The notes below the pieces were generated by a model. The model did not search any database and was not told the origin of the DNA. It worked only from the letters and a program-made list of their open reading frames with translations. DNA of 63,751 nt, filler included, from Dugesia japonica (taxonomy: Eukaryota): assembly GCA_001938525.1 (NCBI GenBank). It is 5 parts of 5 records of this genome, joined end to end, with 100 filler letters (N's around TTAATTAATTAA, not from the genome) between each part and the next. Parts side by side here need not be neighbours in the genome. Positions count along the whole stretch, not along the records: positions 29,086 to 40,253 come from MQRL01641766.1; 4 more parts are not named here. One strand, written 5' to 3'. The position numbers were made by a program, and so were the translations under genes. Below are positions 15,380-50,419 of this stretch, in pieces; position 1 is the stretch's first letter; every line of letters starts with the position of its first letter.

Positions 15380-16960
<1,581 letters not shown>

Positions 16961-21100: not shown

Positions 21101-21271
21101 AACTCATTTTACTTTCTAACTTTAATGCAGCGTTTCCATTCCAAAAACCGTAAAGATATAATCTTGGTTAAATTTTTTTATCATGTACAGCTCTACAACA
21201 CAGTGAAGTAACCTTACATTTATTACATTACATTAGTATTACATTTTGTCTAGTGTGATGTGTTAATAATA

Positions 21272-24200
21272 AGTATATAGATAGGTCCGCGCGGCCTCAC
21301 TACCCTCCGGGGGTTTAAATTTATAAGGCTTAAATTTGATTGACTTTACACATGTTTCTAGAGATTTGATTGGTCGAACATTTAGGTGTCTGATTACGTA
21401 ATTACAGGGGGTAGAAACGTTTTTTAAGTTTATATTTGATTGGCCGCACACATGTTTCCAGCTATTTTTTGGTCAAATGTTTTTGTATGTGTTGATTACG
21501 TAATTATGACGTAATAAAATGCATAGCCATTATGTATTAATTTGGTTTTTATTGATGAACTTTTATTATTGCTTGTTTAAATTAAGTCAAATTATTTATT
21601 TTTGTTTAAATTAAGTTAAGATAATTATTTTTAAAGTAAATTTAGCAAAATTAGAGATTTTTTGAATTTCAATTACATGAAATTAATGAATTTTAAAGTA
21701 AAATCCACTCGGTCATGTTAAAATTAGTCATACCGAGAAATATTAACATCAATATTAGTCGTTCCAGGAAAAATTAGAATTAGTAGTTTCTTGAGTAATA
21801 TTGATATTAAAAGATTTACATGAGATTTTTGTTTAAATTAAGTGAAATTAATTATTTAATAGGTTTTTTCATGGAAAATCGTTAAAATTAACTAAAATGT
21901 TAAAATTTTTAGATAGTTATCAATAGGTAGATAGTAGTGCCACGGCACAATTCACACCCCCTGCACCTCGATGGGAGCTCGGATTGGGCTAAGACTTTGT
22001 GCTATGATTTTTTGGGAAGTTTTATTTCTAAGAATTTTGGGATCAAAAAACATTTGATCGTGAAAGTCTGTGTGTGTATTTTTAATTTTTAAAATTTGTG
22101 TTTTTTGGTTGCTAAGGGGGTTAATTTAAAGTAGGTCAAGTTAATTTTGTGTGTATGAGTATGTGTGTGTGTAAGAAGGAATTTGCGCTCAAGGGAGTGC
22201 TGGAGATCTTGGGAATAATTTTTTGATGATTTTTAAGATTTGGTTGTGGTTGGACAAGATTTTTGGGATCAAAATTTTTTTATCAGATCAGAAATTTTTG
22301 TGTTTTAATTTAAAGTAGGTTAAGTTGAGTCTGTGTGTGTGGAATAGTGTAAATGGACTCGAGGGAGGTCACGAGATCTTGGAAATAATTCTTTCAGGAG
22401 TTTTATGATATAGTTGTGGTTGGACGAAAATTCTGTTTATACAATGTCTAAAGAACATGAGGAGTGGGATGGATGGTTTGATCTACAAAGGATAGTGGTG
22501 CCATGGCACAGGCGTCTGAGTTATCGTGGGGTATTTTTGGAGGGTGTATGTTTGTAGGGGGTTATTGGATTTTGGTGGTTGATGGGTTGTTTGAAAGGTA
22601 ATGTGATGGGGAAAATGTAGGATATTGATTGTGCTTTAATTTCTGATTTGGTGTAGTTGAATTTGATTGCTTGATTTTTGTAAGTAGTATAAGTGTGTTA
22701 AAAAAATTTCTGGAGGGTGAAAGTGTTATGAGTTGAAAGAGAATTAATTATTGGATTTTAAAAGATTTATTTGAAATTTTTCTGCCAGGTCGTTATGAAA
22801 ATAATTTTTTTAAATGTTAATTTGGTTTAAAATGCTATATTTGATTAAAATGATGAATTAGTTGAAAATAATGGTTTTTTTGTAAAAATTATGTATTTTT
22901 GAGTTATTTTTGAGTATTTTTGTATGGAAAGGAGTGTTTTTTATATTTTTTAAAGAATGAGGTTTTGAAATTTTTGAAGGGAAATTTTAAAAAAAAATTT
23001 GGCGGAAAATTTAAAATTTTATATTTTGGCGAGAAATTCAAAAAAAATATTTTTTGGAGGAAAATTTAAAAAATTATTTTTTGTAGGGGCGAATTTAAAA
23101 TTGTTCTTAGCAGACTTTATATTTATGTATGGGATGGGCAGTCTTGATATTTATCGTGGGATGAGTGGAGACTCTATATTTTGCATGGTATGAAGGGAGT
23201 CTCTATATTTTGCATGATATGGGGGAGTATAAAATTCCCAGGCACGTGATTTCCATTGTATGTGTGTTGCAGTTGTGTTGCATCTGAGATGCATACCTAT
23301 TGAATTTATTAAAGATTTATTTTAAAAAATCAATAAATATATACAGGCATGTAATTTTCAATGTATGTGTGTTGCAGCTGTGTTGCATCTGAATTGCATG
23401 CCTATTGCATTTTTAAAAAAATTTATTAAAAAAAGATCAATACAAATTTCCAGGCACGTGTTGCTGTATTGCATTCATATTGCATCCCTATTGCATTCAT
23501 TATTTAAAAACATTGAGGTAGTTTTTATATTTTGTAGTATACGGGTCAGTCACGATATTTTTGCAAGAGTTGGTCAGTATTGATTTTTTTATGAAGTCTT
23601 GATATTATTGCAAAAAAGTGGGCAGTTTAAAATTTAAATTTAATTAAAATGGTAATAATCAAAGACGGGAGTCTCTGTGATATTTACATGATAAAATATG
23701 TTGGCGTCACAATTTTCTTATAAAAAACATGTTATTGATGCAATTTTCCATTAATAATCATTTTAGTGATGCAATGTTTTTTTCTATAAAAACATATTAG
23801 TAGTGACAATTTCTAATAAAAACATATTAGTAGTGACATTTTTTTATAAAAACATATTAGCTGAGAACTTTTCTTTACAAAATTTTAAAAACAACTTTTT
23901 TCAAAAAAATCATAAATTCATGGAAACGTTTTAATATAACTAAAATGTCTATATAAAAATTTATAAGAAAATATTTTTATGATTGTATAGGGTTTAAAGT
24001 GTATTATTTGCATAGTTACTTTGTATTATTTACATAGCAACTGTATATTATCATGCTTATGAGTGTATTATTTACATATTAACGGTGTAATAAGAGGTCA
24101 CCATGCAAAATGCATGCTCGCGTCATGCACAATGTTTGCTCTCATCATTTTCATGAATATATGATTTTAGATAACAAATCATATCATTTAAAACAAATTA

Positions 24201-24800
24201 CAGCCAATCATATAAATCAAAATGAATAATAACCATCCATTTCTATTCATAACAAAAAGAGAGTATGCATGTATCGCAGTTAGTATATAAACAGTAGGTT
24301 TTGTAAAAAAGTCACTTTTACAATTTAAAGTTATTATCAAAATGAATCAAGTCAAAAAAGAAATTAAAAAATTTACAGATGCAATTACCAGTGGATCCGT
24401 TGACGAAATGAATCTAGTGGAAAGAGAAATTAAAAAATTGACAGATGAAATTACCAGTTCACGAAATTCAATTCCTAAGCAGGATCAACAATGGTCTATT
24501 GAGTAAATATGACTATGTTGAACTCATTGTTCGATCAAATTTCATCGACAAAATTATGGAAGAATTGAAAAAGCAAAAGAGAACTATATTTTTGTTGTAA
24601 TTCTATTGAAATCCACTGTGTTTTTTATTTGTTTAGTCGGAATTGATAGTAAATAATTTTATAACTGTATATGGTTTATGAGTGTATTACTTACTTAGTA
24701 ACCATGTAATATAGGGTTTATTTACATAGTACCAATGCAAAAATTAAATAGATAGTTTGAAATTATAGCAAATTTAATAAATAGAGTACTTTTTTTATTA
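21272..24800. repeat. Probable Polinton/Maverick terminal and subterminal non-coding region with internal subrepeats
   Basis: Starts AGTATATAGATAG followed by a GC-rich patch. Contains duplicated blocks (~22020-22440, ~23240-23480) and abuts the Polinton coding remnants. Confidence 0.4.
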
Positions 24801-24839
24801 TTATTTAATAAAATGAACAAGATTTCTTTTTTCAATAAA

Positions 24840-25060
24840 ACATATATTTCGTACACTATAAATACCAGCAAATGAAAATTTCATTTGTAATGTTGCTTCT
24901 CTTTTAATAAACAGTGTTGTCACTCAAGTAAACAGCTATCTAATGTTCTCCATATAGATATGATGTATGAGTATCCTCGAGTAAGGTAATGTTTACAAAA
25001 AATACTGATCCAAGTAGCTTTGATGCACTCTGTTCAATCTGAATAGAACTAATAAATTAA
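24840..25060 (-). pseudogene. Polinton adenovirus-type cysteine protease remnant
   Basis: Minus translation contains ...THTSYLYGEH*IAVYL (consensus GEHWVAxY) directly downstream of the capsid remnant. Confidence 0.5.
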
Positions 25061-25099
25061 ACAATAAATTAAACAATAACTATTACTTTATTGAAAACT

Positions 25100-25365
25100 T
25101 TACACCAATAATGTTCCATTGTCTTTAATTTGAATTTCCTTTTCAAATACTCCATAAATGAGAACTATGCTGATGTTGTTAAAGCTTTGGCAAACTTGAT
25201 ATCCAATCTCAAATTTCCTTGTTGAGGTAATTGACTTTTATTTATATCAAAATCTGGAGAGAGAACAAAAGAAGAGATAATAGTCCTTAAAATCACGAAG
25301 TGCTATTCCACAATTCATATTCTTATCCAAATATTCCATATTTCTTACAATAGATTGCATACATG
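25100..25365 (-). pseudogene. Polinton/Maverick major capsid protein (PY) C-terminal remnant
   Basis: With frameshifts: NCGIALRDFKD..SFVLSPDFDI..LPQQGNLRLDIKFAKAL..LIYGVFEKEIQIKDNGTLLV*, resembling the PY C-terminal pattern FDLTPD...GxLRLExxF...VYxEFxxxIEI. Confidence 0.7.
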
Positions 25366-25829
25366 TTGTGGAATAAGTATAGAATACTAGCGCACTGAAC
25401 CAAGGCTGACTGACAAAACCCCCACAGCGGTTCAGTACCTTTTAAGTGTCTGCATGGTTTACTATTTTTACCTGTTTTTTATAATTTTTGATTGGCTGAG
25501 TATTATATTTTTTACCTGTTTTTAAAGGTTTTGGCTATTTAATTTGGCTACAGGTCACATTTGACCGTTGGTACACAACTTTGACTGTTAGTTCACTAGT
25601 TTTGACTACTTTTTTGTCTGTCTATTTTGACTAATGTATAATTTTGACTGGTGCCGCAGCTTTGCTAAAGTATCTATTAAACTAAATTGTAACCAGAGCT
25701 TCGCTGAGGTAAAATTGAGCCGCCGCCTGTGGCATGTTCAGACTGACTGAAACAGCTAAGCTATGCTCAATTTTACAGATGATCATGGCTTTGCTGTGCT
25801 TATTTATCTAGTTAATATGGGCATTATTT

Positions 25830-26360
25830 GTAATAAGTTGATAAACATGTCTATCATGCTTACTAAATTTTACGGTATACCATTAAAACCTTTTAAGGTC
25901 TATTGTAACCAAGACAATATAGGTATCATCCAAACCGTAATGAGTTAGTGAACATTCTTAGTATGATAAATTAACTCTATAGTGAACCGTTCTAGACCCT
26001 TTAAAAATTATTTTTATACATAAACATAGATATCGTTCAAACCGTAATGAATTGGTGGACATTTCTATTATGTTAAATCAACCTTATGGTAACCTATTCA
26101 AGACCCTTTAAAATTTATTGCTACCAAATCAATATGGGTATCTTTCAAACCGTAATGTGATGGACATTTCAATCATGCTAAATTAGCCCTAAGGTGAACC
26201 ATTAAAAACCTATGAAATGATTCAAGACCTTTTAAAATTTATTTTTATACATCAATATTAGTATCATTCAGACCGTAATGAGTTGGCGGACATTTTTAGT
26301 ATTGTAAAGTCTTATGAATAACCAATGAAAACCCTTGAAACCATTCAAAACCCTTTAAAA
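25830..26360. repeat. Degenerate ~107-124-bp tandem repeat (about 5 units)
   Basis: ACCGTAATG recurs near 25934, 26041, 26149 and 26273, each followed by (A)GACCCTTTAAA-like blocks. Confidence 0.8.
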
Positions 26361-26383
26361 TGCAGTATTATTACTATTAATAC

Positions 26384-26439
<56 letters not shown>

Positions 26440-26489
26440 NNNNNNNNNNNNNNNNNNNNNNNNNNNNNNNNNNNNNNNNNNNNNNNNNN

Positions 26490-26549
<60 letters not shown>
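26384..26549. repeat. (ATT)n microsatellite spanning a gap
   Basis: Direct reading. Confidence 0.95.
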
Positions 26550-26550
<1 letters not shown>

Positions 26551-28985
26551 GTTACTTGGGTTTGAAAAACTCGTCGTTTTATCAATATCAAAATCCGAAT
26601 TCATAACAATACTTTATTAAAATCAAAACTTTAACCAACATTCTCATAGCTCGTCATTGCGTGTGACCCATATGCAATTACTCTTTCTTGCCTATTGTTG
26701 TCTTTTTAATAAAGTACTATGCCAATCGTATCGAAACTCGCATTCGTGTCCAAAATAAATCCTCTATTTATATCTGGAAAACATAATATTTGAGACATCA
26801 TTAGTGCTTATTTCATTGCATTAAAAACTTCTTCTAATTCATTAGCCCATTCAATTTTCTTGTTACCTGGCCCACTACACAGCTGTTCCAGTAATCTAGC
26901 TTTCTTTGAATAATCTTTAATAAACTTTTTATATATATTGCAAATTTCCAAAAAGCTTCTCATTTTCTTAACGGAGTTTGGTTTACCGAAGTTTTTAATT
27001 GCTTTTATTTTAGTTGGATCTGTTTTGACACCTTCTTTACTGATAACGTGTCCCAAAATTTTGATCTCCTTTTGCATGTTTTGGCATTTTTTCGGATTAA
27101 CTCTAAGACCAGCCTTCATAATTTCTGTTAATACTCTATTGATTATTTCATAGTGTTGCTACTTTGTTTCGGTAAATATGAGAATATCATCTAGATAAAC
27201 CATCGCTCCTTTTATTTTTCCGATTACTTTATTTATCATTTCCTAGAACGTACCTGGTTTAAACATAATCGTATATCCTTTTTTTTCTTGATCCAAACAC
27301 AGATTAATGGCACTTATCTTTCCAATGTTCTCCAATGAGCTGTTATTCGCGCAATGCAATTGTTCCTCGCTCTTCTCTAACATTGTTTTTCTGAGTCTAT
27401 TAAATCCTTCCATGCTCATAACATTTATTCTTGCTCCTGTATCCAACAAACAATCAAACTGTTCACCCTTAACCATCACTGAAATGNTGGGTCTCCCTTG
27501 CATTTTATCATACGAAACTTCTGCATTCTGTTTTTCTTCAATTATTCCTATCACTTCTGCTTTGTTAACTTCCGCATCATTCAAACTTTCTCTTTTTAAG
27601 AATCTGTAGACGTTTTCTCTCAATTTACTAGTCTCATCCCATTTCTCAGCCTCTTGAGGATATTCAAACGGTATCTCGTTTAATGGATGGCTCCGGCAAA
27701 CTCCTCTACAGATGGAGCCCTACCTTTTGGGTATTCTCTTCTTGGATAATCATTTTCTATTATGCTCTCCAAAAATCTCTCTTCATTCTCGTCATCAAAT
27801 TCTTCGCGAATGGCATGAATTGGTTTTGAACTACTCCAATCTTTTGTTTGTTGTCCGATTCTAAAATTGTATCTTCTCTCTTATAGTCTAGGTTTACTTA
27901 TGTTTGAATAACATTTTTCTGCTCAGTGGTCTGGTCTTTTACATCTACCGCATGCAATTTCTGTGCACATCCTTCTAACATGACCAATTTTACGACACCC
28001 AAAACATTTTGGTGGTTTCTTGTCTAGACAATTTCTACTTAAATGCCCTTTTTGTGACAAGTCCGACCTTCCACATGAGAATTTTTGGACACTCTCTTTT
28101 TGTATGCTTATAACTCTGGCTTGTCCAACACTGTGGTTCTGTTCTTTTTGCAACTCTCTCAATATTTTGTATCCTCTCCCCGATACGTTCTCCGAAACGT
28201 TCTCCACGTGTTACACCAGCGTAACTCTTTACTACGTTAATAGGTTCTCTTCTTTTTATTCTTTCAACCAAAGATAACGTTTCTTTTATGTCTTCTACTT
28301 TCTCCAATTTTTACATGATAATCTCTTCTTCTGGTTTTTTACTATTTCCACAAATTATTAGCATTTTTTATAAGAGTTTTTCTTTCGTCAACTCTCCATT
28401 TGCTAAAGATTTATCGACTAAATCTTCCACTTTTTAAAAAACATCTCAAGTTCTTCATCACCACGTTGATAGCTAACAAGATTCTGTAAATCTTTTATTA
28501 TGTCTCTCTTGCTCTCAAAAGCTAATCGCAATCTCTCTCGATATCCATCAGCTTTCTTAAATGTCTTTACATATGCTTCCATTACATCCTCATGAAGCAT
28601 ACATGCTACCCAACGTTCCTGATCTTTCTTAGCAACCATGTTATCTGCCTCAAAGTATATACTTTTGGCAACAACCTTTCTGTGATTGCATCAGTGTTTA
28701 CCGCTGCCACCATGTTAGATGGGTTTGGAAAACTCGTCGTATTATCAATATCAAAATCTGAATTCATAACAATACTTTATTAAAATCAAAACTATAACCA
28801 ATATTAATTGTTAAACAAACAAATTAAAATCATGTGTTTTAGTTGGTGATCTTCTTTTCTAAAATTTAAAAATTAAAACTTTTATTTATTAAAAAATTAA
28901 ACTTTATTACATATAATTTTAATTTATCCTTAAACTAATATTTGTTTATTTAAATTTTTCATCAATAATTTAATCTCTCTTTTAG
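26550..28985 (-). mobile_element. Internally deleted Ty3/gypsy element (family B)
   Basis: 5' LTR 28713-gap, PBS TGGTGGCAGCGGT (tRNA-Leu-type) at 28700-28712, gag with CCHC (CFGCRKIGHVRRMC), protease LLDTGA, RT YLDD and ILGHVISKEGV, RNase H start, then a partial 3' LTR at 26550-26640. Confidence 0.9.
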
Positions 28986-29085
28986 NNNNNNNNNNNNNNN
29001 NNNNNNNNNNNNNNNNNNNNNNNNNNNNNTTAATTAATTAANNNNNNNNNNNNNNNNNNNNNNNNNNNNNNNNNNNNNNNNNNNN

Positions 29086-29150
<65 letters not shown>
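29086..29150. repeat. (TAA)n microsatellite
   Basis: Direct reading. Confidence 0.95.
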
Positions 29151-29153
<3 letters not shown>

Positions 29154-32100
29154 CACTGAGCCGGATCTGTTACCGAAAAATAAAAGGCGGCGACATCATC
29201 GTTTTCATCCAAATGGACCCACGTTTAATTGCCTATCTGGCGGGAAAGGTCGGCTATGAACTGTTTCAATTTTCCGTTGTAACAGTTGTTTGTTTGCGGC
29301 TTCAAGGGCCTTGGTTTGGGCCGCCAGGTCACTCTGTTTTTTCACTATCAAATCCATTTTTTTATCAATTTTTCCCTCTGGGCCAAGTGTTTAAGAAGAG
29401 CCCGGTCTGTTTTACGATTTAAGTGTCGTTCCAGTAACAGACGGCGCAGGACTCGATGACACCGGTGGAGATTATTAGGAAAATTGATACGAGGCACTAA
29501 AGGAAATTAAATTAATAATTAAGCAACTATGCAGCTAAGCTTATGTAAAACATAAGGATAAAAGAAATTGATCAAAATAAAATGATTGAATAATAGATTT
29601 TTTTATAAAAGCTTAAACGGGTTAAGTCCGAGAGGTTTGGGTGCTCTTCTCGATCATCAATGGTTCGAGAGGGATTCTCGCCCGGAGACGTAAAACATCG
29701 TTAACCAGTTTATTTTCTCTGTCATGGCTGGACCGGATAACTTCCGCAAAGGACTCAACCTGTTTCTTCCAGGTTCGATCCTGTAGTGAGAGGCCTCGGT
29801 CTGCTTTTTGAAAGCGATACATTTCTTCTTATAGCGGGTTACCTAACTGTTAGTGGCAGCTATTTCGGCCTCCCATTGACGCTTTGCCAGCCGATACAAA
29901 TCGAGGTCCTCACTGGTTTCTCGTAGTTTTTTATTCGGGGCCTGCGATCTATTCAAGGAGGAATGCACTGAAAAATTATTATTATGAACAATAAGACATA
30001 CAATGCTTAAGAATACATCCCTGAATTAATATATAATATAATTTTCCTTTAACCAATGTATGTAGGGTAAAGTGGATTAACAAAGACGAAATATTTATTT
30101 ATTTTCAGTTCTAAGTACAATAAGGAACGGTTTAGTGTGGATCAGTATTATTGTCGATAATATTGTTGGTGTTTTCGACATCATTAACCCCAGTTGGTTC
30201 TCTCACACCCCAGAGTAAATTGGATATAAAACCCTACACTGCTAGAGGTGGAGCTGGAGGTTGATAATTAAAAGATGTGACATGACTGCGTACGACCCGT
30301 TCTACAGCTGGATTTGTATCCTCTCGCCGAATCTCTGGATGCAAGCCACTTTAGCCTGCACTGGAGGCAAATTATCTCGATCCACCAATATACCGGCATC
30401 TCTATTATGCGGATTAAGGTGGCGTCTAAAAACCACCCGACGAGTTCTGCGATCTATTATCTGTTCCCAAACCGAGTCCATTCCTGGGGAAAACTTTATA
30501 ATAATTATTACCATAACACTAACGACAATTTATATAGGTTTATATGACAAAATTTGTAATAAAACAAGAGATGATACACACACATCTAGTCTAAACGTGA
30601 AGTAAAGGTGTAAGATTCGTTCTACATGGATTAACCTACATGCCCATCGACTTATCGTTCTTCGTCTAAGTCTACTTGTTTAACTAGGGGAAACATTTCT
30701 ACAAAGCAACACAGATTCGTCTTGTCTAGATGCTCAATTCTCCCTTTAGTCACTAGATGAACTATTAACTGTCTTATTCGGACAGTTTGACACAGCTGCT
30801 TTATCCGCCGAAGGGTATGACGCAATTCCGCTGGCATGATCTAAAGAATTAAACCGTCAAGGATAGTTATGAAATTTAGGACTGAACAAACCAAGAACAA
30901 AATTCCATTGTTACTGCACGATATTACTTACATGATAGTTGCCATTAGAGTCAAATTGATGTGCACAGAATAATGATAGACATGATCGCAATAATCCTTA
31001 AAATCGATAATGGTTACAACACTTTTACTACTGATTTGATAATAATAATCTTACACTCGGTTTTGGAACTAACCGTCCTAAACATACAACAATAAAATTT
31101 AAAAAAATAAAGACGGCAGTCTTTGCTAAAACAATGAAGTTAGAAATCAATTGACTGGTGCCATCCCTAATATTAAGCAAGAATTACGAAAATCACATTA
31201 ATAATAATAACATTAATAGTGATAAAAACAGTTTTCTTGAGAGCTTTAATAATAATAACTATAATGATCGTAATAATAGTGGCAATAATAGCACTAATAT
31301 TGGTAATAATCCTCATTATGACGTTAGTAAGGCCAGTTTTAACAACACCAATCACGATAGTATTAATAATAATAACAATAATGAAGACAACAACATTTAT
31401 GATGTTAATAATAATTATATTGGTATGCTCAATTTTAGATTATTTATTGCTCAGATCTATTAAAATCGGTGGATGTGCTGAATTTTGGTATTTTCCCCAC
31501 GTGACACAAAATAATACTTTCTCTTAGAATTTATTAATTTGCCCGAAATTTACAAATTAAATAATCGCGGTAAGTGGTTGCCTAGCAAAAACAACAATTT
31601 ACAATAGTGAGCGTTACACACCAGTCTTAAAGGATAGCCTGTGTGTATGTAGAAAGATTTATCATATTACCATCGATGACTTCACTCAGGTTACTATGAT
31701 GAAGTTATTCATTACAGCAACTTAAGTTGCTATAATGAGTGGCGGATTGATTATTTTTATATGAGATTTGTGGAATTACTCCTACTCACAGCTGATTTAT
31801 AATTTACTACTCATACAATTGTGTAGATCATGCAGTTGAGAATACGATTTTCGCATAAATTTAGTCAACAAAAACAAAACCTCATTTCCTTACTAATAAA
31901 ATATTTTTAAGTTAAAATAAAAATTTGAATTAAAAACTTTTTATTTATTCAACTTTAAATTTACTTTAATTTACTAATACATAACAGAATACTTACTATC
32001 AAATTTTTAGTACGATTTCTGCCCCGGTGGCTAACAATAACAGATGGATGCACAGTGTTCTTTTTTCTTCTTTTAATTGATACAAAAAGTAACAATTTTT

Positions 32101-33275
32101 GCTGTTTTAGTAAGGTTGAAAATCAGTAAAGTTTAATGAATATAATCACTTTGGTGGTACGCGATAACTGAGCAAGTTGATTTCCGTTTGTTGATAACAT
32201 AATAAAATTCTGCCGAGAGTTTTTCTTTTGAGAGTTAACGAATCATTTGTTAGTTTTACGAGAGATTTAGTAGTGTTTTTTGTCAATATTCTGCTAACTT
32301 TATGCTTCTTTATATATGGCTTTTCCTCGCACCCCAACTTTGTTCATAATCATTGGTTATTTTTAACTGGAACTTTTGGCTTCCTTTTGGTTCTAGTGCC
32401 AATTTTCTAAAAAATCTTTTAGAGTTTTGGAACCGCAATTGGTGGTTGTTTTTGGAATGACACATGATAATTGTGTCTTTGTTTTATTTTTATTTTCAGG
32501 TTTCTTATTGGCCCGATCTTGAAAACCCTGCAGCAACCTTCTGGGTGGTGGTAAGTTTTTTTCTGGTAAAGTACCGATAAACCCTTCTGAATCCTTTCGG
32601 AATTTCCTTATTCTGGGCTCCTCGGATTTTTGGGGCCAAGATATTGGGATAAAACCGGATTTGAATTAATTTTCTTTTATTTTAACACTTGATTAATTAA
32701 TATTTTTCTTATAATTAAGTGTTTTATTAGATATTTTCTTTTCTTCTTATTTTAATAATTTATAATTTGTTCTAATTGATTTAAAATAGATGGATGCTGA
32801 TTTTGATTACCCAGTTTATTTTCACTGGTTTTTCGTATTTTGTTCACTCATTAATTGATTTCCAACCTGGTTTTTTTATTCATCTTGTTTTAACCATCTT
32901 TGGTTGATTTTCATCTGTATTTATGATTCTTTTCCTTCTTTTACCATTTTATAATTTGTGGCGGCTTTGCCTTTTCTTTAGCGGTGTGTTTCATCCCAAC
33001 AAATTGCTCTCCGTTTTATTTAAATTCCGTCCCGAAATTTTCCATTATCTATCCCCGTTGCAGAATCCTGTACCCTTATAAAACTGACAGAGCAAGACGC
33101 AATTTAAGGTCATTGCATGTTATTTGTTTAGCACATACATAAAAACTTTTTTACGTTATACATTTAAATACCATATACCTTAATATATTATAGTTCGTTA
33201 CTCTAGTTAGTTTCACAACATCATTTATCGTCTAGTTTTGTAATTACAGTTTATTTATAGCGAGTATAGTTTGTT

Positions 33276-34438
33276 TTAATCGACTTCTTCTCCTATGTTG
33301 TGTTGAAAATTGGTTTGTGGGTTGAAGCCATATTTCCGTAATATTTCGGTTACGATTGATTGGGACAGATTCTTTTTGAACTGAATGTGATCTAACACTG
33401 AAGTCTTGCTGGTTATTCTGCTAGGTGCTGTGGAAACGTGTAAGATACTCTGGGGTTCCTGGATTACCAAGAGTGCAGGTTTTCTGGGTTGAGCCGAGAT
33501 TGTGGAGGGTGTTAGATTTCTGTTTGAGGCTGAGTCTATTACCTTATTTATCCATTCTGGAATTTGGGATTTAGCTGGAGTTAACATGAGGTCCTGGATT
33601 AATAATGGTAAATTGTCTTGGTCGACTGAAGATTGTTGGTTGCCATTCGGGGCGGCAGGATTTAGGGTTGATTTGGGTGAATTGAGGATGATTAAATTCC
33701 TTTGGGGAGATGGGATTGGTAGTACTAATGGATGAGAGATAGGTTGGCAAACTGCGTGAGACTGTTGCAGCTCTTTGATGGTTGAAAACTGGTCGACTAA
33801 GTGTTGTTGTTTTTGCCTTATCTCTTCTTCTTTTTCACGGTAGAGGTTTCGCAGCTCGTCGATTTATTGTTCGAGTGCTTCTATATATTGCTCCTGAAAT
33901 TTGTTCTTTTGCTGTTGTTCTTCAATTATACTTTCAAATTCTAACGAAAGCTTATCTATACCTGCTCGAACACCTTATCTGTTAGCCAGGCTTGTCAGGA
34001 GTTGATTTTCGGTGGCTAGATGATTTTTTTCAAACTGGGTGTTAAACAGTTCCATTCTCAGGATTTTTGTATTTTCTTGTTCGATGATTAATTGGGTCTC
34101 GAGAGCTTTTCTTTTGGGTTCGACTTCATCATATTTGTTTTTCTAATTTCGGACTTGTTTAATGGCATTTATCTCGGCTCTATTGGCATCGATATTACTT
34201 TTAAAATATTTTTTATGGGACTTGCATGACCTCTTTTTGTTTCTAACATCTGGTTAGCTCTCTCTGCCTGACCTTCTAACTCACTATTATACTTTTGCAA
34301 TTGTAAGTTGGATAGGGCATCTATTTTGGATTCTAATTTCCATTTAAGGACTTCAGGTACGGTTGTGAGGGTTCGAGTTTGGATTTGCAATAATTGAATT
34401 TCGTTACGTAGGTGATTTATCAGATTTTTGTTATTCAT
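33276..34438 (-). pseudogene. Accessory ORF D: long coiled-coil followed by a Pro/Ser/Thr-rich region (~385 aa; several stops and a frameshift)
   Basis: The 34169-34438 ORF joins via EPKRKALETQLIIEQ...EEQQQKNKFQEQYIEALEQ...LPIPSPQ to the 33276-33587 ORF. Confidence 0.6.
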
Positions 34439-34531
34439 TTCTAAATTAGAGAGAGTGAATAATTTATTATAAAATTTTGATAATTATATGTATATATATA
34501 TTATACCGTATTTAGATTTTGAATTTATTTT

Positions 34532-35574
34532 TTATTGAAATGCTATCCCCAATACCCTACGTTCAATTATCTTCCGGCACATAGGGCATTCGTTTAATTT
34601 TATCGCACAATTATAGCATGTTTTGAAATGTCCGCATGGAAGGAAAATAATTTCTATAGTTTTCGCCAAGCATATGACACAATCGTTATCCATTAATGCC
34701 CATTTTTGTTCAAATTTTACTTGTTGACCTTCTTTTCGGAGCGACTGTTGGTATAATTCGTATAGCGTGATTAATTTAGTCCCTTTCTCTGTGACCGTTT
34801 GTTTTATTAGTTGATCGATATTTATCTGCTTTAACTTTAAAATATTGGTCAGCCTGTTGGTCTGTTATTCAATTGCAATTTCTATTCTGTTAAGAGACAT
34901 ATTCCACTTGATTCTACAAGTGGTTGCTAGTAATTCTTCTTCATCGATTTTATTTAATCTTGAAAATTTTGTTGGTGGTTGAATATCTTCTTTGGTAATT
35001 TCTCTACTCCTTTTGCGAGTTTACCAATCTATTAAGGTAGTTTAGCTCTCTCGTCTGATCAGAGATTAGATCGCGTGGTTTGGCTACTAACTCCATTGTA
35101 TACTTCTGTTTTTCTGTAGTAATTTCCAGCATTTGTCGATTTTCCATTATTTGTTGTCGACAAATAAAGGTTTCTGCATATAAATTCTCGTTTTGAAGTT
35201 GTAGGATTTTATTTTTAAATTCTAGCTCGCACCAATCTAGGGTTTTCATAGTTATTAGGGTTTGCAATAGTTGATTCCGACTGTGCTCCAGTTCTTCTAA
35301 TCGTTGTGGAGTCCATTGAGTTTGGATTTTAATGCTATTACATAATTCTTTCATTTCCTCATTATGATTTCTCCAGATTTCATTTATCGTTACTTGTGAG
35401 GGTATCATATTTGTAGGATTATTTACTAGTGACAAATTTCTGGTAGAATGGTTGACTCGTTGTTAGATCAGTTTGTGAGTCCATGTTTTCATTTTTGGTC
35501 GTATTCTGGTATTTTCCTTCAGTTTCTATTTCTTTTTGATTTATTTCTGAATGTGAAACATCGATTAACTTCAT
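34532..35574 (-). pseudogene. Accessory ORF C: coiled-coil plus C-terminal C3HC4 RING finger (IAP/MDM2-like type), putative E3 ligase
   Basis: Minus translation ending at TAA 34532: DNDCVICLAKTIEIIFLPCGHFKTCYNCAIKLNECPMCRKIIERRVLGIAFQ*. It links to coiled-coil ORF 35004-35435 through one frameshift and one stop; the 35574 ATG needs a further frameshift. Confidence 0.85.
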
Positions 35575-35648
35575 TGCTGTTTTTATCTATATACATATTC
35601 ATTAAGTAAGTTTACAATTTACACTATTTACACAGATTTGAGATTAGT

Positions 35649-37268
35649 TTAGCAAGTCATTACCCCTGGTGCCTGATAGGGTTTAGGCACATATGTGGGT
35701 AATTCGTTCGATAGTATCCCCAGTGGTAGTTCTTCGTAATTTGGTGGTGCTAATGGTAGGTGTCGTCTTTTCTCATTTCGACTATGTTTCTTCCGTTTCG
35801 GTTTTGCTTGTTTACAGAATTGCACATATAGTGTGATTAATACTAGTGCCGCTATTGATACACTTCCTATTATTATGTGGTCTGTTCCATTTTGGGTTGG
35901 TTTGGTGGTAGTGATTGGTTCCTTTATTATAGTCGGCCCACCCCATATCATCCGGTGATCTTACTTTGGCTGGTAATTCCTCAGGTTTTTCATTAAATTG
36001 TTTAAGAAGTTTGCTCTATTTTTTTTCTTTTCCTCGGTGGCCAACGTAGTCCGTGTTTTTGTTTTCGTTGTTATTGTGGTTTTTTCTGTGGTAGTTCTAG
36101 TACTTATTTTAACCTTTGGTTTAGTAATATTCAGCTTTATTCTTAAATCCCGATTAATAACTGCAGTGAATTCTATCTCCCACATTTCTGGTCCAAAACT
36201 ACCCATGTTTGTTCCTTGTTCCTGTAATGCATTTTCTTTGAATCCTGATATTTTTTCATTATAAGCCCATCCCCATTGAGCGAATGAATAATACTTGTTC
36301 TTTTTTTTCGTTAATTCGTAATTGATATGTGTTGTTCATTTTTCTGATCGGTACGGGCCTTGGACTTTCCTGCCAACGATAACCACATTATCCAAACATG
36401 TATTCGGTTATCGAGCGGAATCCTTTTCCCCAGTTAATGGCTATACTTTTTTGTTCCCTAACACCCGTTTCTTATCTGTCGATTCCTTAACTATATTTTT
36501 CAAAAATTGGATATGGAATAGGTATTCATTCTGTGGGCAGATTTTCACGTTCTTGTCTCCTTTCCGTTCCCATGTCCATTCCCTTTGTCGCGGGTTTTCT
36601 ATTACGTAGTAGATTAGGAGATTACGTGCGTGATGCATCTTAAAATTTATTTGGTGCTCATAATCGCCATGATTTCTTTTACGTTTCCCTTGAAATTCTT
36701 GTGCCGAATACATCCACCAATTCTTTATGTTGAAATGCATTGCCTGACCTTCTACTGGTGCTTCTCCTTTATACCATAAACTTGCTGTCCACCCATACCA
36801 TGATAATAATATTTGATGTTCCTTAGTTCCTTCAATGGTAGGTTTTAGCAATATCGACTCATGTTCCTATCCTTCGAAAACTTTTATTTCACGTCTTCGT
36901 CCATCTGTGCTCATTGTTCGAATGGTGGTTTTGCGGTCGTTGAAATAAACCCTATGTTCCGTTAATATTAACTCATTGGTCCAACAATCTTGACATTTAA
37001 TTCCCTTCATCACTATTACTAAAATAGTGATTATAACTTGTCTATTAGATATTCTATTCTGGTTTTTCCCTTTTCCCATATTTCTGATGAGTTTCATGGT
37101 TAACCAAATTAATACGCCATGGTCCCAATTTGTGTTGATTACTGCCCATAACAACAGAGATATTTTGACTATTATTTCTACTGTAATCACGTTCTTGTTT
37201 TCTTGTGGTAACCCGCTTTCTGATTTTCTTGGTTCTGTTTGATCCACCCTATCCCGCAATAATATCAT
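35649..37268 (-). pseudogene. Accessory ORF B: Env-like type I membrane glycoprotein
   Basis: ORFs 36867-37268/36441-36851 and 35961-36206/35649-35951 are each in frame across a single stop. Features: signal-peptide-like VIITILVIVMKGIKC|QD, Thr-rich stalk, NIT and NGT sequons, TM IIIGSVSIAALVLITLYV, basic stop-transfer, tail with PPNY and LPTY. Confidence 0.65.
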
Positions 37269-37300
37269 TTTCCTTTTTCCCGCCCTTCCCGGCGTTATTC

Positions 37301-38713
37301 TTACCCTTCCTGAGGATTTGTGATAATCCTTGGTTTTGATTTCCTACAAGCCAATTTATCTGATTTTATGTCTAGTAACGTCATATTTTTTAGCTTGTGA
37401 TTACTTTGAATAGCTGGCTCGACCATGCCCCACGGCAATTGGATCTTCAATGGTTCATATACTCTAATCCAGTTCCATTGTACTAACGTATGGTGAAACA
37501 TTTGAATGGATTTTAATAATTCTTTGCTGTAAATATTTGTGCATGGCATGCACAATTTTTTTATGATAGATTGGCGAATGAGGACTTAAATTGGTATTTT
37601 AATTCGGTATACATCACAGTCTTTCCTGAACCAATTTTCTGGTTTGAATAATCATGCTCTTTGATCGTAAATGGCCTTTAGTGTGTTCTTTAATATTATT
37701 TGTGTTTGTCTGATACATTGTAAACAATTCTCCTCCAATTGCTGTGCTGACAGCGGACAGGTTAGATGGTTAAGGTGATTACAACTTTCTTCGGATCTTA
37801 GTGTCCGGCTCCCCTGGCAGGTGATTGTATAGCATGTAGTAGCATCCATAGCTTCAGGTTCCAGGGGTCGACGCATTTGATTATCTGAACCAAAAGATAC
37901 AGTTTTAACTTCTTGTGCTACAATGGCTGATTTATCATTAATCATAGATAATGTTGTTGGAGTTTGAGAAGGACGACTAATACTTGGTGTCTTAATTATT
38001 TTAGGCATAACCAATTTGTTCGAATCATTCGATTCTTTGGTGACTAATGCCATATTTCCGCTATCTTTCATCTTTCTTTCTTTCCTTCATTTGTCGGCAT
38101 ACTTTAATACGCCCTCCTTCAATAACCGCGTTATTTTTTGCAACTCTGTTTCTATCCTTTCATCTTCTTTTGGTTGTATGTCTGTTTTCAGTTCTGAACT
38201 TACATCTTTCTCCACTAGTTCCGCTTCCCCACCTTCTTCAGACTCAGCGTCCTCGCTGAGACTTCTTTTCCTTAATACCAATTCTAAACCACTCCACGTT
38301 GGAGGTTCTACTGGTTGAGACCATAATATCAACCAGTCCCATACTATAATTATCGTATGGAAATTTTCAAAAGCTCGAGTGAGAGTTTTGTTTTAAATAC
38401 TTGCACAACATTCGAATAGAGTGTGTAAGTCATCGGGTGTCAGTTGCCCGTGAATTGTCAGCTTGTCATGCATTTCCTTACAACGTCTTCTACGGAGTTC
38501 GTCTTGTTGTAACAACCCAAGTCTGCGACTAGCGATTTCCCGCAATGTTGATTTCAAAATTGATTGTAATTTCCGTATGCATGCAAGGCAACTTGCCTCA
38601 ATTAGAGTTGGTGAGATTGGGCATGTCACCTGAGAGAAGTGCGCACAACAGTTCTCGGGTACCGGTATCTGCGTTTCTCGTGGAATTATAGGATAGATTG
38701 TCATGGTACCCAA
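37301..38713 (-). pseudogene. Accessory ORF A: ~470-aa protein with two copies of a Cys/His-rich domain
   Basis: Track ORFs 38393-38713, 38087-38332, 37652-38071 and 37301-37555 share one frame, separated only by point stops. Confidence 0.7.
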
Positions 38714-38729
38714 TGCTTTAACTCGATGG

Positions 38730-40253
38730 CTTAACTGATGATTTTCCGAGTGTCATCATGGCTTGTTGTGATCGTAATGTATAACTATGCGATACATTTA
38801 ACTCCAGATTCTCTGTTTTACGTGGCCTACCTGGGCCTCTGTGTTCCGTCGTAGTTGGCGCAATTTCCTCCATCATTGCAGCCTTCTTACATAAGTTGGC
38901 GTGGTATATTTTGGGTTTTTCGAAGAGATTTCCTTTCTTTCAAACTTTGAGATTGGTTTTGGTTACCTCAATCACCTCAAATACTTCGTATGGTCCTTGC
39001 CATGGCCTTTTTAATTTTGATGTAGTGCCAACAAAAATGTCTGGTAAATTGATCAATACCATGTCGCCTTTTTTAAATGAATGTTGTATTGCCGTTTTAT
39101 CGTGCCAATTCTTATAGCTTTCCTGGTAAAACCCTACATTCTCCTTGGCTTGTTTCCATATTTTCTGCATAGTCTCTTTGAAATTTTCAGCGAAATCTGT
39201 TTCGTCTTGGTATTGTGTTATAGGTAGCTGAAATTCTAAGTCAATTGGCATGTTGCATTCTCTGCCGTACATTAATCCAAATGGAGTGTATTTTGTTTCT
39301 GGATGTACACTCATACGGTATACAAATAAACACAGCTGGATATGCTTATCCCAATAATTTTGTTCTTTTTGAGCATAACTGGATAGCATATTGATCAAGG
39401 TTTTATTAAATCGTTCCGTTAGTCCGTCTATTTGTGGATGATAAGGTGATGTTCGTTGTTGATGTATTTTGAGGAAGCTTGATATTTCTGCCAGTATGTA
39501 GCTCATAAAATTTTTTCCTTGATCGGTCAATATCTTTTTAGGTGTGCCATATCTGCTGAAAAATTTTCGTACCAAGATATCCGCCATGATGGTTGCTTTT
39601 TGATTTTTTATAGAGAATGCCTCCGGGAATTTTGACAAGTAATCTATGATTGTTAGTATGTAGATGTTTCGACTCAGCGTCGGTGGTAACGGTCCAACTA
39701 CGTCCATAGCTATTATTTCCATAGGTGTGGCAGAGACGCTATCGGTTTCTATAGTGCCTTCATTATTTTGCCCGTTGCTCTTCTGGCAGCACATATTTGA
39801 CATTTGGCGATTCATTCCTTTACTGATTCTGCCATATGTGGCCAGTAATATTTCTGTCTTAATTTTGATTCGGTCTTCTTATGAGACATGTGTCCTCTTA
39901 ATACTCCATTGTGATATTGCTCGAGTAATTTATCGCGTCTTGCTTTAGAAATGACTAATACAGTATTTTCTCCGTCCTGAGCAGTCAGCCATCTTTTAGT
40001 GACTGCATAACGCCCTCCGTTTTTCTTTAAGTGTTCTTTCATCTTGGGTTTGCATTCTAACTTCTCTAAATTGTAATTTTCCATATATTTTGTGATGATC
40101 TTGATCTCTTCATCATCAGCCTGTGCCTGTTTCAGCCCATCAAAATTTCGATCCTCGGATAAAATGAAGTATACCATATCTACTTTTTTCTCTAATAGTT
40201 CACGTAATGTGAATATTTCCGTATCTTCCGGGGTACTTTCTGTGGCTTCTGGT
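38730..40253 (-). pseudogene. Gypsy pol C-terminus: connection domain, HHCC, DDE integrase, GPY/F, AT-hook
   Basis: KQAQADD, YHNGVLRGH...YYWPHM, AMDVVGPLP, IIDYLSKF, LTDQGKNF, SPYHPQIDGLTER, WQGPY, then past a stop HANLCK...RGPGRPRK...YTLRS. Confidence 0.95.
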
Positions 40254-40353
40254 NNNNNNNNNNNNNNNNNNNNNNNNNNNNNNNNNNNNNNNNNNNNTTA
40301 ATTAATTAANNNNNNNNNNNNNNNNNNNNNNNNNNNNNNNNNNNNNNNNNNNN

Positions 40354-42444: not shown

Positions 42445-44510
42445 AGAAATGGAGGAAGCTCTAAATTATTGAATATAATATATAAATAAGAATAAAGAAG
42501 AAGATTGAAAGATTGGTAGAAATGTTAATGGCTCATAAATGGAACAAAGAGNANTTGACAAAAAAGCTAATAATGAATAGTTGCAACGACAGAAAGATTA
42601 AACATAAAATCAAATCAGGAAAAATAGAAAACGTAGACGATGTATTTAAAGCAATAAAAGAGTGGGAAGACATAAAAGACGAAGTAAAAACTGAAGAAAT
42701 AAATTTAGTTCGTAACTACAGAGATGCAGTTCGCCAAAGTCCAGAACAAACAAATTTCAACAAGATTCGAAGTGTAGGAATGCAACAGAACAGAAACAGC
42801 GAAAGACGAGAAATAACGTGTTGAACCTGTAACATAATAGGTATTGTAAGCAGAAATTTTCAAGAAAAAAAATTGTTATGCTTTGTGAATCTGAACAACA
42901 CTTAAGAAGAGACTTTACCAAAGTTAGTTTTTCAAGACGCAACAAAAAAGGTCACCATACAGAGGACTGTTACAAAAATATGAACAGAAATTTATGTTAT
43001 CAGAATAAAAGTGAACAGACCAGAAATATATTCGGAAATAACAACCAAAAATATTATTCGAACAACTAAACAAGAAGGAATGAAAGCCAGGTTAATTTAA
43101 TTGAGGAAAATGGAAAAGATTGTGTATATAGAGAAGACAAAGGCCACTATTGTAATGACGGGTCAAATAATTATCAAGATGAATACCCAAATGGCCAAGC
43201 TCTGACCGAAGTTGAGATTGTTGGAGCGTTGAATTAAGTATCCCAAAAAATCCCAGTATTGTTAATTATATTTTAAGTAGTATAAATAATTATATAAATA
43301 AAAGAAACGAAGATAAGCGAGTAGGTGAGTACAATGATGTAAAAGAAAAAGTTTACAAGTTTGTAAAGAAATAATTGATTAGAGCCCAGTCATAGATGAT
43401 CAATGATATAAATGGAGAAGATGACAGTGAAATTCTGACGATAGATGAGATAAAGAGACAAGAGATAAATTATGACAAGATGCAAGGTAGACCAAGTATA
43501 ATAGTTGAAATACAAGGCGTAAAAATTGATTGCTTGTTAGACACTGGAGCAAGAGTTAATATGATGAGTTTGAGAATTTTGGAAAGATTGGGAAAAGTCA
43601 ATATATTAAAAAGCGAAGACGATTTAAAATGTGCCAATAATAGTCCGCTTGATTTAGTAGGTACGATAAAGGTAGAAGTGGAATTCGAGAATAAAAGCGA
43701 ACCAGTTAAATTATTTGTCATTAAACAGATACATTCAGATTTTATAGAAGGAAATGAATTACAGAAGCAGTTTGGATNNNAACTGCTGAGAGAGACTAAA
43801 TGTGAGGACAATGAAATGTATCTTTGTAATATAGAAGCAAAGTATGGACGCAGTACATCGGATGAGAAGAGAGTACAGAGAGCAATAAAAATATTGATTA
43901 ACAAGACAAACGAGAATTTAGAAAATGTTAGAAGGATTTATAAAGTAATATTCATGGCAAACAACTGGGATATCAGCAGAACAATAATGGCAGAACATTA
44001 TATAATTACAAATGGATAACAAATATATACGAAACCATGGAGACAACTAATGTATTTAGATAATAAGATTGATGAAGCTATCAAGACTTTGTTTATAAGA
44101 CTTTGGCATTATTAGAAAGTGTAATTCGCCATGGAACACCCCATTAATATGTGTTTGGAAAAAAGAAAGAAAAGGCGTTAGATTATGTCTAGATTTTAGA
44201 AAACTGAATGCAATCACAGAAAGACAGATATTTCCGATGTCCAATGTAGAGGAAACACTAGATAATTTGAGTGGTGCAAGATATTTTAGTAATATTAATT
44301 TGGGTAATGCATATTATCAAGTTCCGTTATATAGAGAATTACAAGAGAAAACAGCATTCTCTACGAAAAATGAACAGTATTGTTTAACAAGTATGCCTTT
44401 TGGTATAGCTGCAGCAACTGGAACGTTTCAAGAATTAATGACAAAAGTATTAGGAAGATTGAGAGGAACAATGGTATACATGGATGATATATTGATATTT
44501 TCAGAAAATT
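42445..44510 (+). mobile_element. Gypsy gag-pol fragment related to family B
   Basis: YDKMQGRPSI...DCLLDTGARVN, SPWNTPL, RLCLDFRKLN, YYQVPL, MPFG, YMDDILIFS. Confidence 0.9.
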
Positions 44511-45049
44511 TAAATATTTGTTGCCATTTAACAAACTTATTTAACCAAATACTTATATTAGATTTTAGACTCATTTTAACTTCCAAATTATCGTTTGAAA
44601 TCCAGTTACTTAGTTTACCTTTACAAATTTTTCGAAAATAACTCGTGGCTATACACAACAATTAGTATAAATANNNNNNNNNNNNNNNNNNNNNNNNNNN
44701 NNNNNNNNNNNNNNNNNNNNNNNNNNNNNNNNNNNNNNNNNNNNNNNNNNNNNNNNNNNNNNNNNNNNNNNNNNNNNNNNNNNNNNNNNNNNNNNAAATA
44801 TTCTTTTTGTATTTTTATTAAAAATTTAGTTAGTAAATAACATTTTAATTTAGAAAAAAAAGTTAAACGTAATCGAAGTAATATTAAACCGCCACTATTG
44901 CTTTATACCAATCAAAACAGAATACTTGATGCTAAACAAAAAAAGGATATTTTTAGCAGAAAAAAGTCCCTTAGTTCGGCATCCGAAAATTCTCAAAATG
45001 CTGTGTAAGATTTCATTATTTTCTTATTTTTACCAATTACTCATCATCA

Positions 45050-50355: not shown

Positions 50356-50419
50356 GTATGTAAAATATGTTAATTTCAGTCTGGAAATAAAACCAATATC
50401 ATTTTATAATTAACTCAGC

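What the first reader, a model, noticed from the sequence alone, without database searches (positions are those of the whole stretch)
29151..40253. Giant gypsy-type element carrying a virus-like accessory gene cluster after integrase
Seen: directly after a gypsy integrase there is no PPT/LTR. Instead at least four co-oriented, tightly packed long ORFs can be reconstructed across point stops (duplicated Cys/His protein, type I membrane glycoprotein, coiled-coil-RING, coiled-coil/Pro-rich), then smaller ORFs (32146-33050, 30652-30837, 30302-30514, 29622-29970). Known: errantiviruses normally carry one env ORF here. Inference: a complex retrovirus-like LTR lineage with surface, ubiquitin-ligase and metal-binding accessory genes, possibly undescribed.
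Basis: partly seen in the sequence, partly recalled or inferred. Interest (0 to 1): 0.88.

Follow-up and report, generated by a model that had tools for sequence, protein, structure and literature searches.

The report
Retrotransposon with virus-like accessory gene cassette
A broken copy of a multi-copy jumping gene in an animal genome carries four extra genes packed right behind its integrase, including a predicted surface protein and a likely ubiquitin ligase, a layout that would make it resemble a complex virus more than a simple retrotransposon.

Summary
The core observation is confirmed. A Ty3/gypsy integrase is followed 13 nt later by four co-oriented decayed ORFs:
- A: a tandem-duplicated Cys/His protein.
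- B: a predicted type I membrane protein with a PPxY/YxxL tail.
- C: a coiled coil with a cIAP/XIAP-type RING.
- D: a coiled-coil, Pro-rich protein.

All four have far fewer stops than chance. The whole stretch is multi-copy, and deleted sister copies independently join integrase to A and A to B. No true relative of A or B was found. The integrase is at most 44% identical to the relatives compared in the tree, and lies outside the Gmr1 clade.

Three qualifications apply. B lacks F-type or gB fusogen hallmarks. The small distal ORFs are statistically weak and may lie in a long 3' LTR starting near 32054. Gag, RT, both element ends and the target site are lost in assembly gaps. Almost no cargo RNA was seen in 4 runs.

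The best reading is a new variant of giant, probably planarian, gypsy elements (Burro and GAG-ENV-POL kind). Grohme 2018 and Repbase could not be checked. Earlier scan notes describe similar features in other elements of this genome; none matched this sequence.

The parts
39713..40253 (-). Pol linker and integrase H2C2 zinc finger; one stop inside the finger region, frameshift near 39730; 5' end cut by the assembly gap
   Evidence: PF17921 E 1e-16; frames
38718..39728 (-). Integrase catalytic core, GPY/F region and C-terminal tail; one stop
   Evidence: PF00665 E 3e-14; at most 44% identity among tree rows, outside the Gmr1 clade
37301..38704 (-). ORF-A, 467 codons, 4 stops: two copies of a ~125-residue Cys/His helical module joined by an acidic, Ser/Thr/Pro-rich linker
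   Evidence: no true homolog
35649..37268 (-). ORF-B, 539 codons, 5 stops: predicted type I membrane protein with a long hydrophobic leader, ~285-residue ectodomain core with 3 Cys, Thr/Lys-rich stalk, membrane anchor at 464-485, and a tail with PPNY and YEEL
   Evidence: no homolog
34532..35574 (-). ORF-C, about 345 codons over three frames: coiled-coil region and a C-terminal C3HC4 RING of cIAP/XIAP type with all eight zinc ligands
33276..34438 (-). ORF-D, about 385 codons over two frames: coiled coil followed by a Pro/Ser-rich region; splice-acceptor-like site 2 nt before its ATG
32146..33050 (-). Heavily decayed Lys-rich coding-like region (E), not one frame; shared with more abundant related repeats
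   Evidence: P 0.045; summed depth 4125-6519 in X1
32054..32074 (-). Candidate polypurine tract followed by TG: possible start of a long 3' LTR (weak)
   Evidence: strand A/T bias ends at 32044-32272
31997..32030 (-). Candidate 34-nt exon, with acceptor-like site before and GTAAGT donor after, ending in A
   Evidence: not seen spliced in RNA
29153..30840 (-). Row of micro-ORFs (30652-30837, 30302-30481, 29622-29967, 29348-29496, 29205-29357). Four of five follow acceptor-like sites; two begin with TG right after the acceptor. Possibly inside the 3' LTR; cut by the gap
   Evidence: bin 29530-29899 has summed depth 45340 in X1

Best explanation
This is a decayed genomic copy of a multi-copy Ty3/gypsy LTR retroelement that carries its own cassette of four accessory genes directly behind integrase, likely read from spliced subgenomic RNAs and likely used to traffic its particles and disarm host defences. 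SHOWN: integrase, four linked co-oriented ORFs, many related copies, an IAP-type RING, and a membrane-anchor segment. INFERRED: B is a surface attachment or trafficking protein rather than the fusogen, and its PPxY/YxxL tail would recruit NEDD4-type ligases and endocytic adaptors. C would be a coiled-coil-dimerised E3 ligase that marks host defence or cell-death proteins for degradation. A would bind zinc in two helical modules, and D would be a coiled-coil adaptor. A long 3' LTR with micro-genes likely begins near 32054. Any fusogen would sit between gag and pol in the missing 5' part, as in described flatworm GAG-ENV-POL elements.
For: Spacers are 13, 32, 74 and 93 nt, and stop depletion is strong. 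One strand bias (A 37-46%) runs from integrase through E and stops at 32044-32272. All 30 of 30 bins are covered by many 80-95% alike contigs in 4 of 4 DNA runs. Copies with deletions absent from the window join integrase to A (37671-39385, in X1, X3 and X6, side up to 54 nt) and A to B (37120-37452 and 37248-37306, sides 52-53 nt). The A repeats keep Cys, His and Trp while third codon positions are least alike (0.50/0.56/0.39). The best solved-structure matches of the RING are cIAP1, cIAP2 and XIAP (E 4e-11 to 8e-10). Planarian Burro elements carry apoptosis and ubiquitin domains and accessory ORFs (PMC6431247). None of the six S. mediterranea GAG-ENV-POL elements had an LTR or PBS call in 14.5-18 kb spans (PMC13524379 supplement 1), which fits larger elements.
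Against: No LTR pair, PBS, target-site duplication, gag or RT is visible. Almost no RNA lies on A-D (mean depth 0-0.37) and there is no splice joint there in 4 of 4 RNA runs, of which only 6-25% were read; spliced expression is therefore unshown. Acceptor-like sites are weak for C, E and the last micro-ORF (ranks 83/244, 105 and 116 of 686), and the score is ad hoc. The B-C, C-D and D-E links were not seen in other copies in the rows shown (15 of 162 joints). One PPT+TG among 16 purine runs is about chance level (my estimate). No function was tested, and both folds were low confidence. The planarian host rests on unchecked earlier notes.
Confidence: 0.68

Rival explanations
1. It is the 3' half of an already named family (Burro-2/3/4, one of Smed errantivirus 1-6, or a Repbase gypsy), and its downstream ORFs are already drawn in material I could not see. 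This is compatible with the best explanation but removes most novelty.
For: Integrase bins have summed depth 12437-30912 in X1 against 665 or more for cargo bins, so close integrases are very abundant. Burro occurs in thousands of copies and has accessory ORFs, Smc-like and RING motifs. Smed errantiviruses 1 and 2 have 45 and 215 copies.
Against: Pfam found no BIR, ankyrin, MATH or BCL2 in A-D. The Burro review places those motifs and env inside the gag-pol polyprotein. No paper found describes this set.
Confidence: 0.35
2. ORF-B is itself the element's envelope, a fusogen of a kind not yet described, and the element is a GAG-POL-X-ENV virus.
For: It has type I topology downstream of pol, a long leader, 2 sequons, one polybasic site at 195 and a PPxY late-domain-like motif. 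It has no homolog, so a new fold is not excluded.
Against: No hydrophobic fusion-peptide-like stretch follows the polybasic site. The ectodomain core has only 3 Cys, and no strong heptad repeat was found. No Pfam env family matched at E up to 1. Flatworm errantiviruses in the survey carry gB-type env before pol.
Confidence: 0.15
3. The cargo is a separate repeat (an endogenised DNA-virus segment or another mobile element) that landed beside, or was mis-assembled with, a gypsy integrase.
For: Depth varies more than tenfold between neighbouring cargo bins (665 to 11626 in X1), so parts are shared with other repeats. Coiled-coil plus RING proteins are common in insect DNA viruses (recalled). The assembly is a gappy draft.
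Against: The 13-nt junction has the integrase end intact. Strand and base bias are the same throughout. Independent deleted copies join integrase to A. There was no match of A or B in viral contigs.
Confidence: 0.08
4. The four large ORFs are real but the distal small ORFs are chance frames or parts of unrelated nested repeats, not genes of this element.
For: Their stop depletion is marginal (P 0.03-0.41), and none reached a Pfam cut-off. One bin is about 50 times deeper than its upstream neighbours.
Against: Four of five have acceptor-like sites at their starts (ranks 2, 17, 22, 40 of 686), and two begin with TG after the acceptor, matching a candidate exon that ends in A. Earlier notes report such arrays in LTRs of other elements of this genome (unchecked).
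Confidence: 0.3

Closest known systems
Burro / GYPSM1 giant gypsy-like LTR retrotransposons of planarians (PMC6431247, passages of section 7 read; Grohme 2018 not held)
   Same: Gypsy pol with large extra coding capacity, accessory ORFs, and ubiquitin- and apoptosis-related domains (RING, Smc-like coiled coil); very abundant.
   Different: Burro packs BIR, ankyrin, BCL2, MATH and env into a ~4900-aa gag-pol polyprotein. Here four separate ORFs follow integrase, and none of those four domain types is in them. The 5' part is missing, so the two could still be related.
Flatworm GAG-ENV(HSV gB-type)-POL errantiviruses, Smed_errantivirus_1-6 (PMC13524379, passages and supplement rows read)
   Same: Ty3/gypsy elements in the probable host group, multi-copy, with no LTR or PBS called, which fits long 3' extensions.
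   Different: Their env is gB-type and precedes pol, and the passages I read describe no post-integrase cassette. ORF-B is not gB-like. No integrase sequence sheet appears in the supplement list, so direct comparison was not possible.
Insect errantiviruses (gypsy, ZAM, springer; bioRxiv 10.1101/2023.08.03.551782, two passages read)
   Same: A membrane protein gene downstream of pol; env made from spliced RNA, in the springer subclade with a start codon completed by splicing.
   Different: They have one F-type env directly after pol. Here ORF-A intervenes, three more ORFs follow, and B lacks F-type hallmarks.
Bdelloid rotifer LTR elements with extra ORF3s (PMC5408684, passages read) and C. elegans Cer1 with CERV (PMC10309623, abstract read)
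   Same: Gypsy-type elements with non-env accessory genes; Cer1 makes its accessory protein from a spliced RNA.
   Different: In the passages and abstract read, these are ORF3-type extras (GDSL, DEDDy, small membrane proteins) or one regulator (CERV), not a row of four with an IAP-type RING.
cIAP1/cIAP2/XIAP RING domains
   Same: C-terminal C3HC4 RING with all eight zinc ligands, ending a few residues before the stop.
   Different: No BIR domain; a coiled coil takes its place, so it is not an IAP.

Membership tests
Ty3/gypsy (Metaviridae) | Gypsy-type integrase with H2C2 finger, rve core and GPY/F region | tested here: met
   PF17921 E 1e-16, PF00665 E 3e-14; 189 gypsy polyproteins at E<=1e-30
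Ty3/gypsy (Metaviridae) | PR-RT-RH-IN order with integrase last | tested here: inconclusive
   Integrase ends pol and no RT follows, but RT and RNase H are lost in the gap
Ty3/gypsy (Metaviridae) | Paired LTRs, PBS, PPT and target-site duplication | not testable with these tools
   Both ends fall in N gaps, no whole genome is held, and there is no second LTR copy in the window; one weak PPT+TG candidate
Insect-type errantivirus (GAG-POL-ENV, F-type) | A single env ORF directly after pol | tested here: not met
   ORF-A lies between integrase and B; C and D follow
Insect-type errantivirus (GAG-POL-ENV, F-type) | F-type fusogen: furin site followed by fusion peptide, heptads, conserved Cys | tested here: not met
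   No Pfam match at E<=1; the polybasic site at 195 is not followed by a hydrophobic stretch; 3 Cys in the core
Flatworm GAG-ENV(gB)-POL errantiviruses | gB-type env between gag and pol | not testable with these tools
   That region is in the gap. ORF-B itself is not gB-like (3 Cys, no family match)
Flatworm GAG-ENV(gB)-POL errantiviruses | Integrase groups with Smed errantivirus integrases | not testable with these tools
   The supplement list shows no integrase sequence sheet (five further sheets of file 7 were not listed)
Burro / GYPSM1 | Giant gag-env-pol polyprotein with BIR, ankyrin, BCL2 and MATH domains | not testable with these tools
   The 5' part is missing; none of these domains is in A-D
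Burro / GYPSM1 | Total length over 30 kb with multi-kb LTRs | tested here: inconclusive
   At least 11.1 kb from the integrase linker onward; the candidate LTR would be over 2.9 kb
Gmr1-like elements | Integrase placed before RT; integrase inside the Gmr1 clade | tested here: not met
   No RT follows; the window integrase lies outside the IN-RT clade (SH-aLRT 100, quick tree, 43 rows), although 87 of 120 listed hits are IN-RT
Troyka | CG...CG termini and 3-bp target-site duplication | not testable with these tools
   Ends missing; only part 1 of 5 of PMC12440569 read
IAP proteins (ORF-C) | C3HC4 RING of IAP type | tested here: met
   PF13920 E 9e-15; top PDB matches cIAP/XIAP
IAP proteins (ORF-C) | At least one BIR domain | tested here: not met
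   No BIR match in the three pieces of C or in A, B, D

The most novel reading that the evidence does not exclude
An undescribed lineage of enveloped, complex retrovirus-like Metaviridae in a flatworm that, like herpes- or paramyxoviruses, separates a receptor-binding glycoprotein from its fusogen. It encodes its own IAP-derived ubiquitin ligase and zinc-binding regulators in a spliced post-integrase cassette, plus a row of LTR micro-genes with splice-completed start codons: lentivirus-grade complexity evolved independently outside vertebrates.
Probability: 0.27. Interest if true: 0.85.

Novelty: new variant of a known kind. Interest (0 to 1): 0.6.

Why it matters
Gypsy elements are usually gag-pol with at most one env-like ORF. 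A family that keeps four or more separate accessory genes would show that invertebrate retroelements reached the organisation of complex retroviruses on their own. It would also supply orphan proteins (a new surface-protein family, a tandem Cys/His module, a BIR-less IAP-type ligase) that point to the host defences these elements must beat. If the host is a planarian, existing piRNA-pathway knockdown data could test expression and splicing directly. The caution is that giant planarian elements with apoptosis and ubiquitin cargo are already known, and this copy is dead.

Tried and rejected
- Whole genome: none held, so no copy-by-copy boundary analysis.
- ORF-B homologs: none among 6061 candidates of 296-944 aa (shorter and longer lengths not searched). 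None in Pfam, PDB sequences, metagenome contigs or viral contigs. The single-sequence fold had pLDDT 32 (57) and was not searched further. The ectodomain halves are not repeats (407 of 500 shuffles as high). No Atlas result exists for B.
- ORF-A: the one hit in 1.84 billion representatives is a bacterial PPC-repeat protein, rejected as spurious. The Atlas gave no usable hit for its first module. The two-row fold had pLDDT 48 and was helical, with no viral-structure match at E<=0.001. PDB and viral-contig profile searches were blank.
- ORF-C: no protein of 269-2000 aa at E<=1e-8 among 307 candidates (weak evidence). Kinship of the C and D coiled coils is not significant (51 and 22 of 500 shuffles).
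- ORF-D: the Atlas did not answer in 4 tries.
- Integrase: no relative in viral contigs. Four distant metagenome loci (31-42%) carry none of A-D. Gmr1 membership was rejected (careful tree unfinished, every third IN-RT row kept, 20 of 24 rows of unknown order dropped).
- No RNA holder was listed by the run search. Rfam found nothing.
- A host-gene look-up for named relatives was blank.
- Grohme 2018 was not held under three ids, and PMC6431247 had no readable supplement. Both may bear on novelty.
- Earlier-findings look-ups by sequence and words were blank.
Full report
SETTING. The window is AT-rich (GC 0.18-0.41 per kb) draft animal DNA full of decayed retroelements. It also holds a histone H3 copy and a DUF4796 gene. 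The finding spans exactly one contig, 29153-40253, between N gaps bordered by (TAA)n. No whole genome is held. That the host is a planarian comes from earlier scan notes (unchecked). It fits the composition, but my own look-up did not establish it.

THE OBSERVATION. On the minus strand the contig starts inside pol, with the H2C2 finger (E 1e-16) and the rve core (E 3e-14). The integrase stop is at 38718-38720. Four ORFs follow, with spacers of 13, 32, 74 and 93 nt: A (38704-37301), B (37268-35649), C (35574-34532) and D (34438-33276). Each has far fewer stops than shuffled sequence, for example 4 of 467 codons against 32.3 for A and 5 of 539 against 39.2 for B; 0 of 1000 shuffles were as low, though the windows were chosen after the fact. 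The integrase has one frameshift, C has two and D has one.

THE PROTEINS. A holds two ~125-residue modules, 38 of 124 identical without gaps (E 9e-22; score 186 against a shuffle maximum of 54 in 500). Cys20, His22, Cys28, Cys39, Cys42, Cys75, Cys100, His116 and two Trp are kept. DNA identity between the modules is 0.50, 0.56 and 0.39 by codon position, the pattern of selection on protein. B has a long leader with two hydrophobic peaks and a third at 464-482. Its ectodomain core has 3 Cys, its stalk is 23% Thr, and its tail has PPNY and YEEL. Its one polybasic site, at 195, is not followed by a hydrophobic stretch. C ends in a complete C3HC4 RING whose best solved matches are cIAP1, cIAP2 and XIAP (22 PDB sequences at E<=0.01), with no BIR. 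C and D score as coiled coils on a crude heptad count. Every search for true relatives of A and B was blank. The folds were too poor to use (pLDDT 32 and 48).

IS IT ONE ELEMENT, AND A FAMILY? Contigs of 4 DNA runs from 3 studies cover 30 of 30 bins; most are 80-95% alike to the window. In X1, cargo bins have summed depth 665-11626 and integrase bins 12437-30912, while two contigs identical to the window have depth 5.8 and 10.2. The tool warns that this is no copy number, but it shows many related copies. Copies with deletions that the window lacks join integrase to A (37671-39385 in X1, X3 and X6; 38263-38736 with only a 20-nt side) and A to B (37120-37452, 37248-37306). These links cannot come from the window's own assembly. 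Only 15 of 162 joints were shown, and links B-C, C-D and D-E were not among them. The strand bias of the integrase (A 0.37-0.46) continues through E.

WHERE DOES IT END? The A-over-T bias breaks at 32044-32272. The only purine run followed by TG within 3 nt lies at 32074-32058, with TG at 32054. One such case among 16 purine runs is about what chance gives, by my estimate, and the break may simply mark the end of region E. Depth does not rise there (288 in bin 31750-32119), which speaks against a simple LTR call. Below it lie micro-ORFs, four of five behind acceptor-like sites ranking 2, 17, 22 and 40 of 686 AG sites on an ad hoc score. Two of them begin with TG right after the acceptor, and a candidate exon at 32030-31997 ends in A before GTAAGT. 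I noticed the acceptors myself. The split-start and LTR micro-gene readings came from earlier notes on other elements. A splice-completed env start is in print for springer-type errantiviruses.

EXPRESSION. Raw reads of 4 RNA runs from 3 studies (6-25% of each read) gave 41, 274, 63 and 93 laid reads, nearly all fitting only in part and many on an AAT-rich patch. Mean depth on A-D was 0-0.37, with no splice joint. The cassette is silent or very low in these samples, whose tissues I do not know.

INTEGRASE PLACEMENT. Of 189 hits, 120 were listed; 87 have integrase before RT, 9 after, and 24 were unclear. In a quick tree of 43 rows the IN-RT (Gmr1-like) rows form a clade (SH-aLRT 100) that excludes the window integrase. 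The window integrase sits on a long branch (1.48) with at most 44% identity. No named errantivirus or Burro integrase was available as a reference.

MECHANISM. I commit to a Ty3/gypsy element with its own accessory cassette, likely expressed by splicing. B is likely an attachment or trafficking protein, since PPxY and YxxL motifs bind NEDD4-type WW domains and adaptor complexes (recalled). C is likely a dimeric E3 ligase aimed at host defence or death pathways. A is likely a zinc-binding regulator and D an adaptor. The gene content and linkage are shown; all functions and the splicing are inferred.

COMPARISON. Burro elements carry RING, Smc-like, BIR, ankyrin, BCL2 and MATH motifs and env within a giant polyprotein, plus accessory ORFs (PMC6431247, passages). 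Flatworm errantiviruses are GAG-ENV(gB)-POL (PMC13524379, passages). Eight of its nine flatworm rows, including all six from S. mediterranea, have no LTR or PBS call (supplement 1). Rotifer elements have diverse ORF3s (PMC5408684, passages), and Cer1 has a spliced regulator (PMC10309623, abstract). PMC8532177, PMC11410931, PMC13238120 and PMC8797187 (passages) and part 1 of PMC12440569 added nothing on this layout. Eight answered searches (listings only unless named above) showed no description of this gene set. Grohme 2018 and Repbase could not be seen.

VERDICT. The finding is real, and it is a new variant of a known kind. Interest is 0.6. It would be higher if long-read copies confirm the cassette between LTRs together with an upstream fusogen, and lower if it proves to be an annotated Burro or Repbase family.

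Noticed in passing
window 29530-29899: This bin has summed contig depth 45340 in X1, against 816-1564 in the three bins just above it, so the helical micro-ORF region is shared with a far more abundant repeat.
   Followed up: partly
window 38810-38840 (-): The integrase tail has a GRPRK stretch resembling an AT-hook (label recalled); it might steer integration to AT-rich DNA.
   Followed up: no
window 37301-37307 (-): The stop codon of ORF-A lies inside a strong donor-like site (G|GTAAGA), so splicing could extend A onto a downstream exon.
   Followed up: no
window 4014-4625 (-): Intact single-exon-looking ORF with DUF4796 N- and C-terminal matches; the exact sequence is not in the protein collection.
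   Followed up: partly
window 8684-14108: Decayed gypsy on + (RT 11350-12950, integrase 13020-13710), with a protease fragment on the opposite strand at 8687-9100.
   Followed up: partly
window 26643-27719 (-) and 43396-44641 (+): Two further gypsy protease-RT fragments with similar protease regions; neither continues the element studied.
   Followed up: partly
window 55791-61482 (+): Decayed non-LTR element (RT at 57955-58710; R2-like end region, label recalled) with a damaged histone H3 copy at 60002-60373 in the same orientation inside it.
   Followed up: no
window 31190-31420: AAT-rich low-complexity patch, open as Asn-rich frames on +, which attracts unrelated RNA reads.
   Followed up: partly
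window 19085-19184, 28986-29085, 40254-40353, 54832-54931: Four 100-base gaps carry a TTAATTAATTAA-type spacer between N runs, a scaffolding artefact; order across them is not assured.
   Followed up: no
window 50336-51462 and 61698-63177: A near-perfect 457-base tandem duplication, and a pair of long inverted arms about 1.2 kb apart.
   Followed up: no
window 17609-17689 (-): Short frame resembling the GIY-YIG end of Penelope-like elements (label recalled), next to a gap.
   Followed up: no
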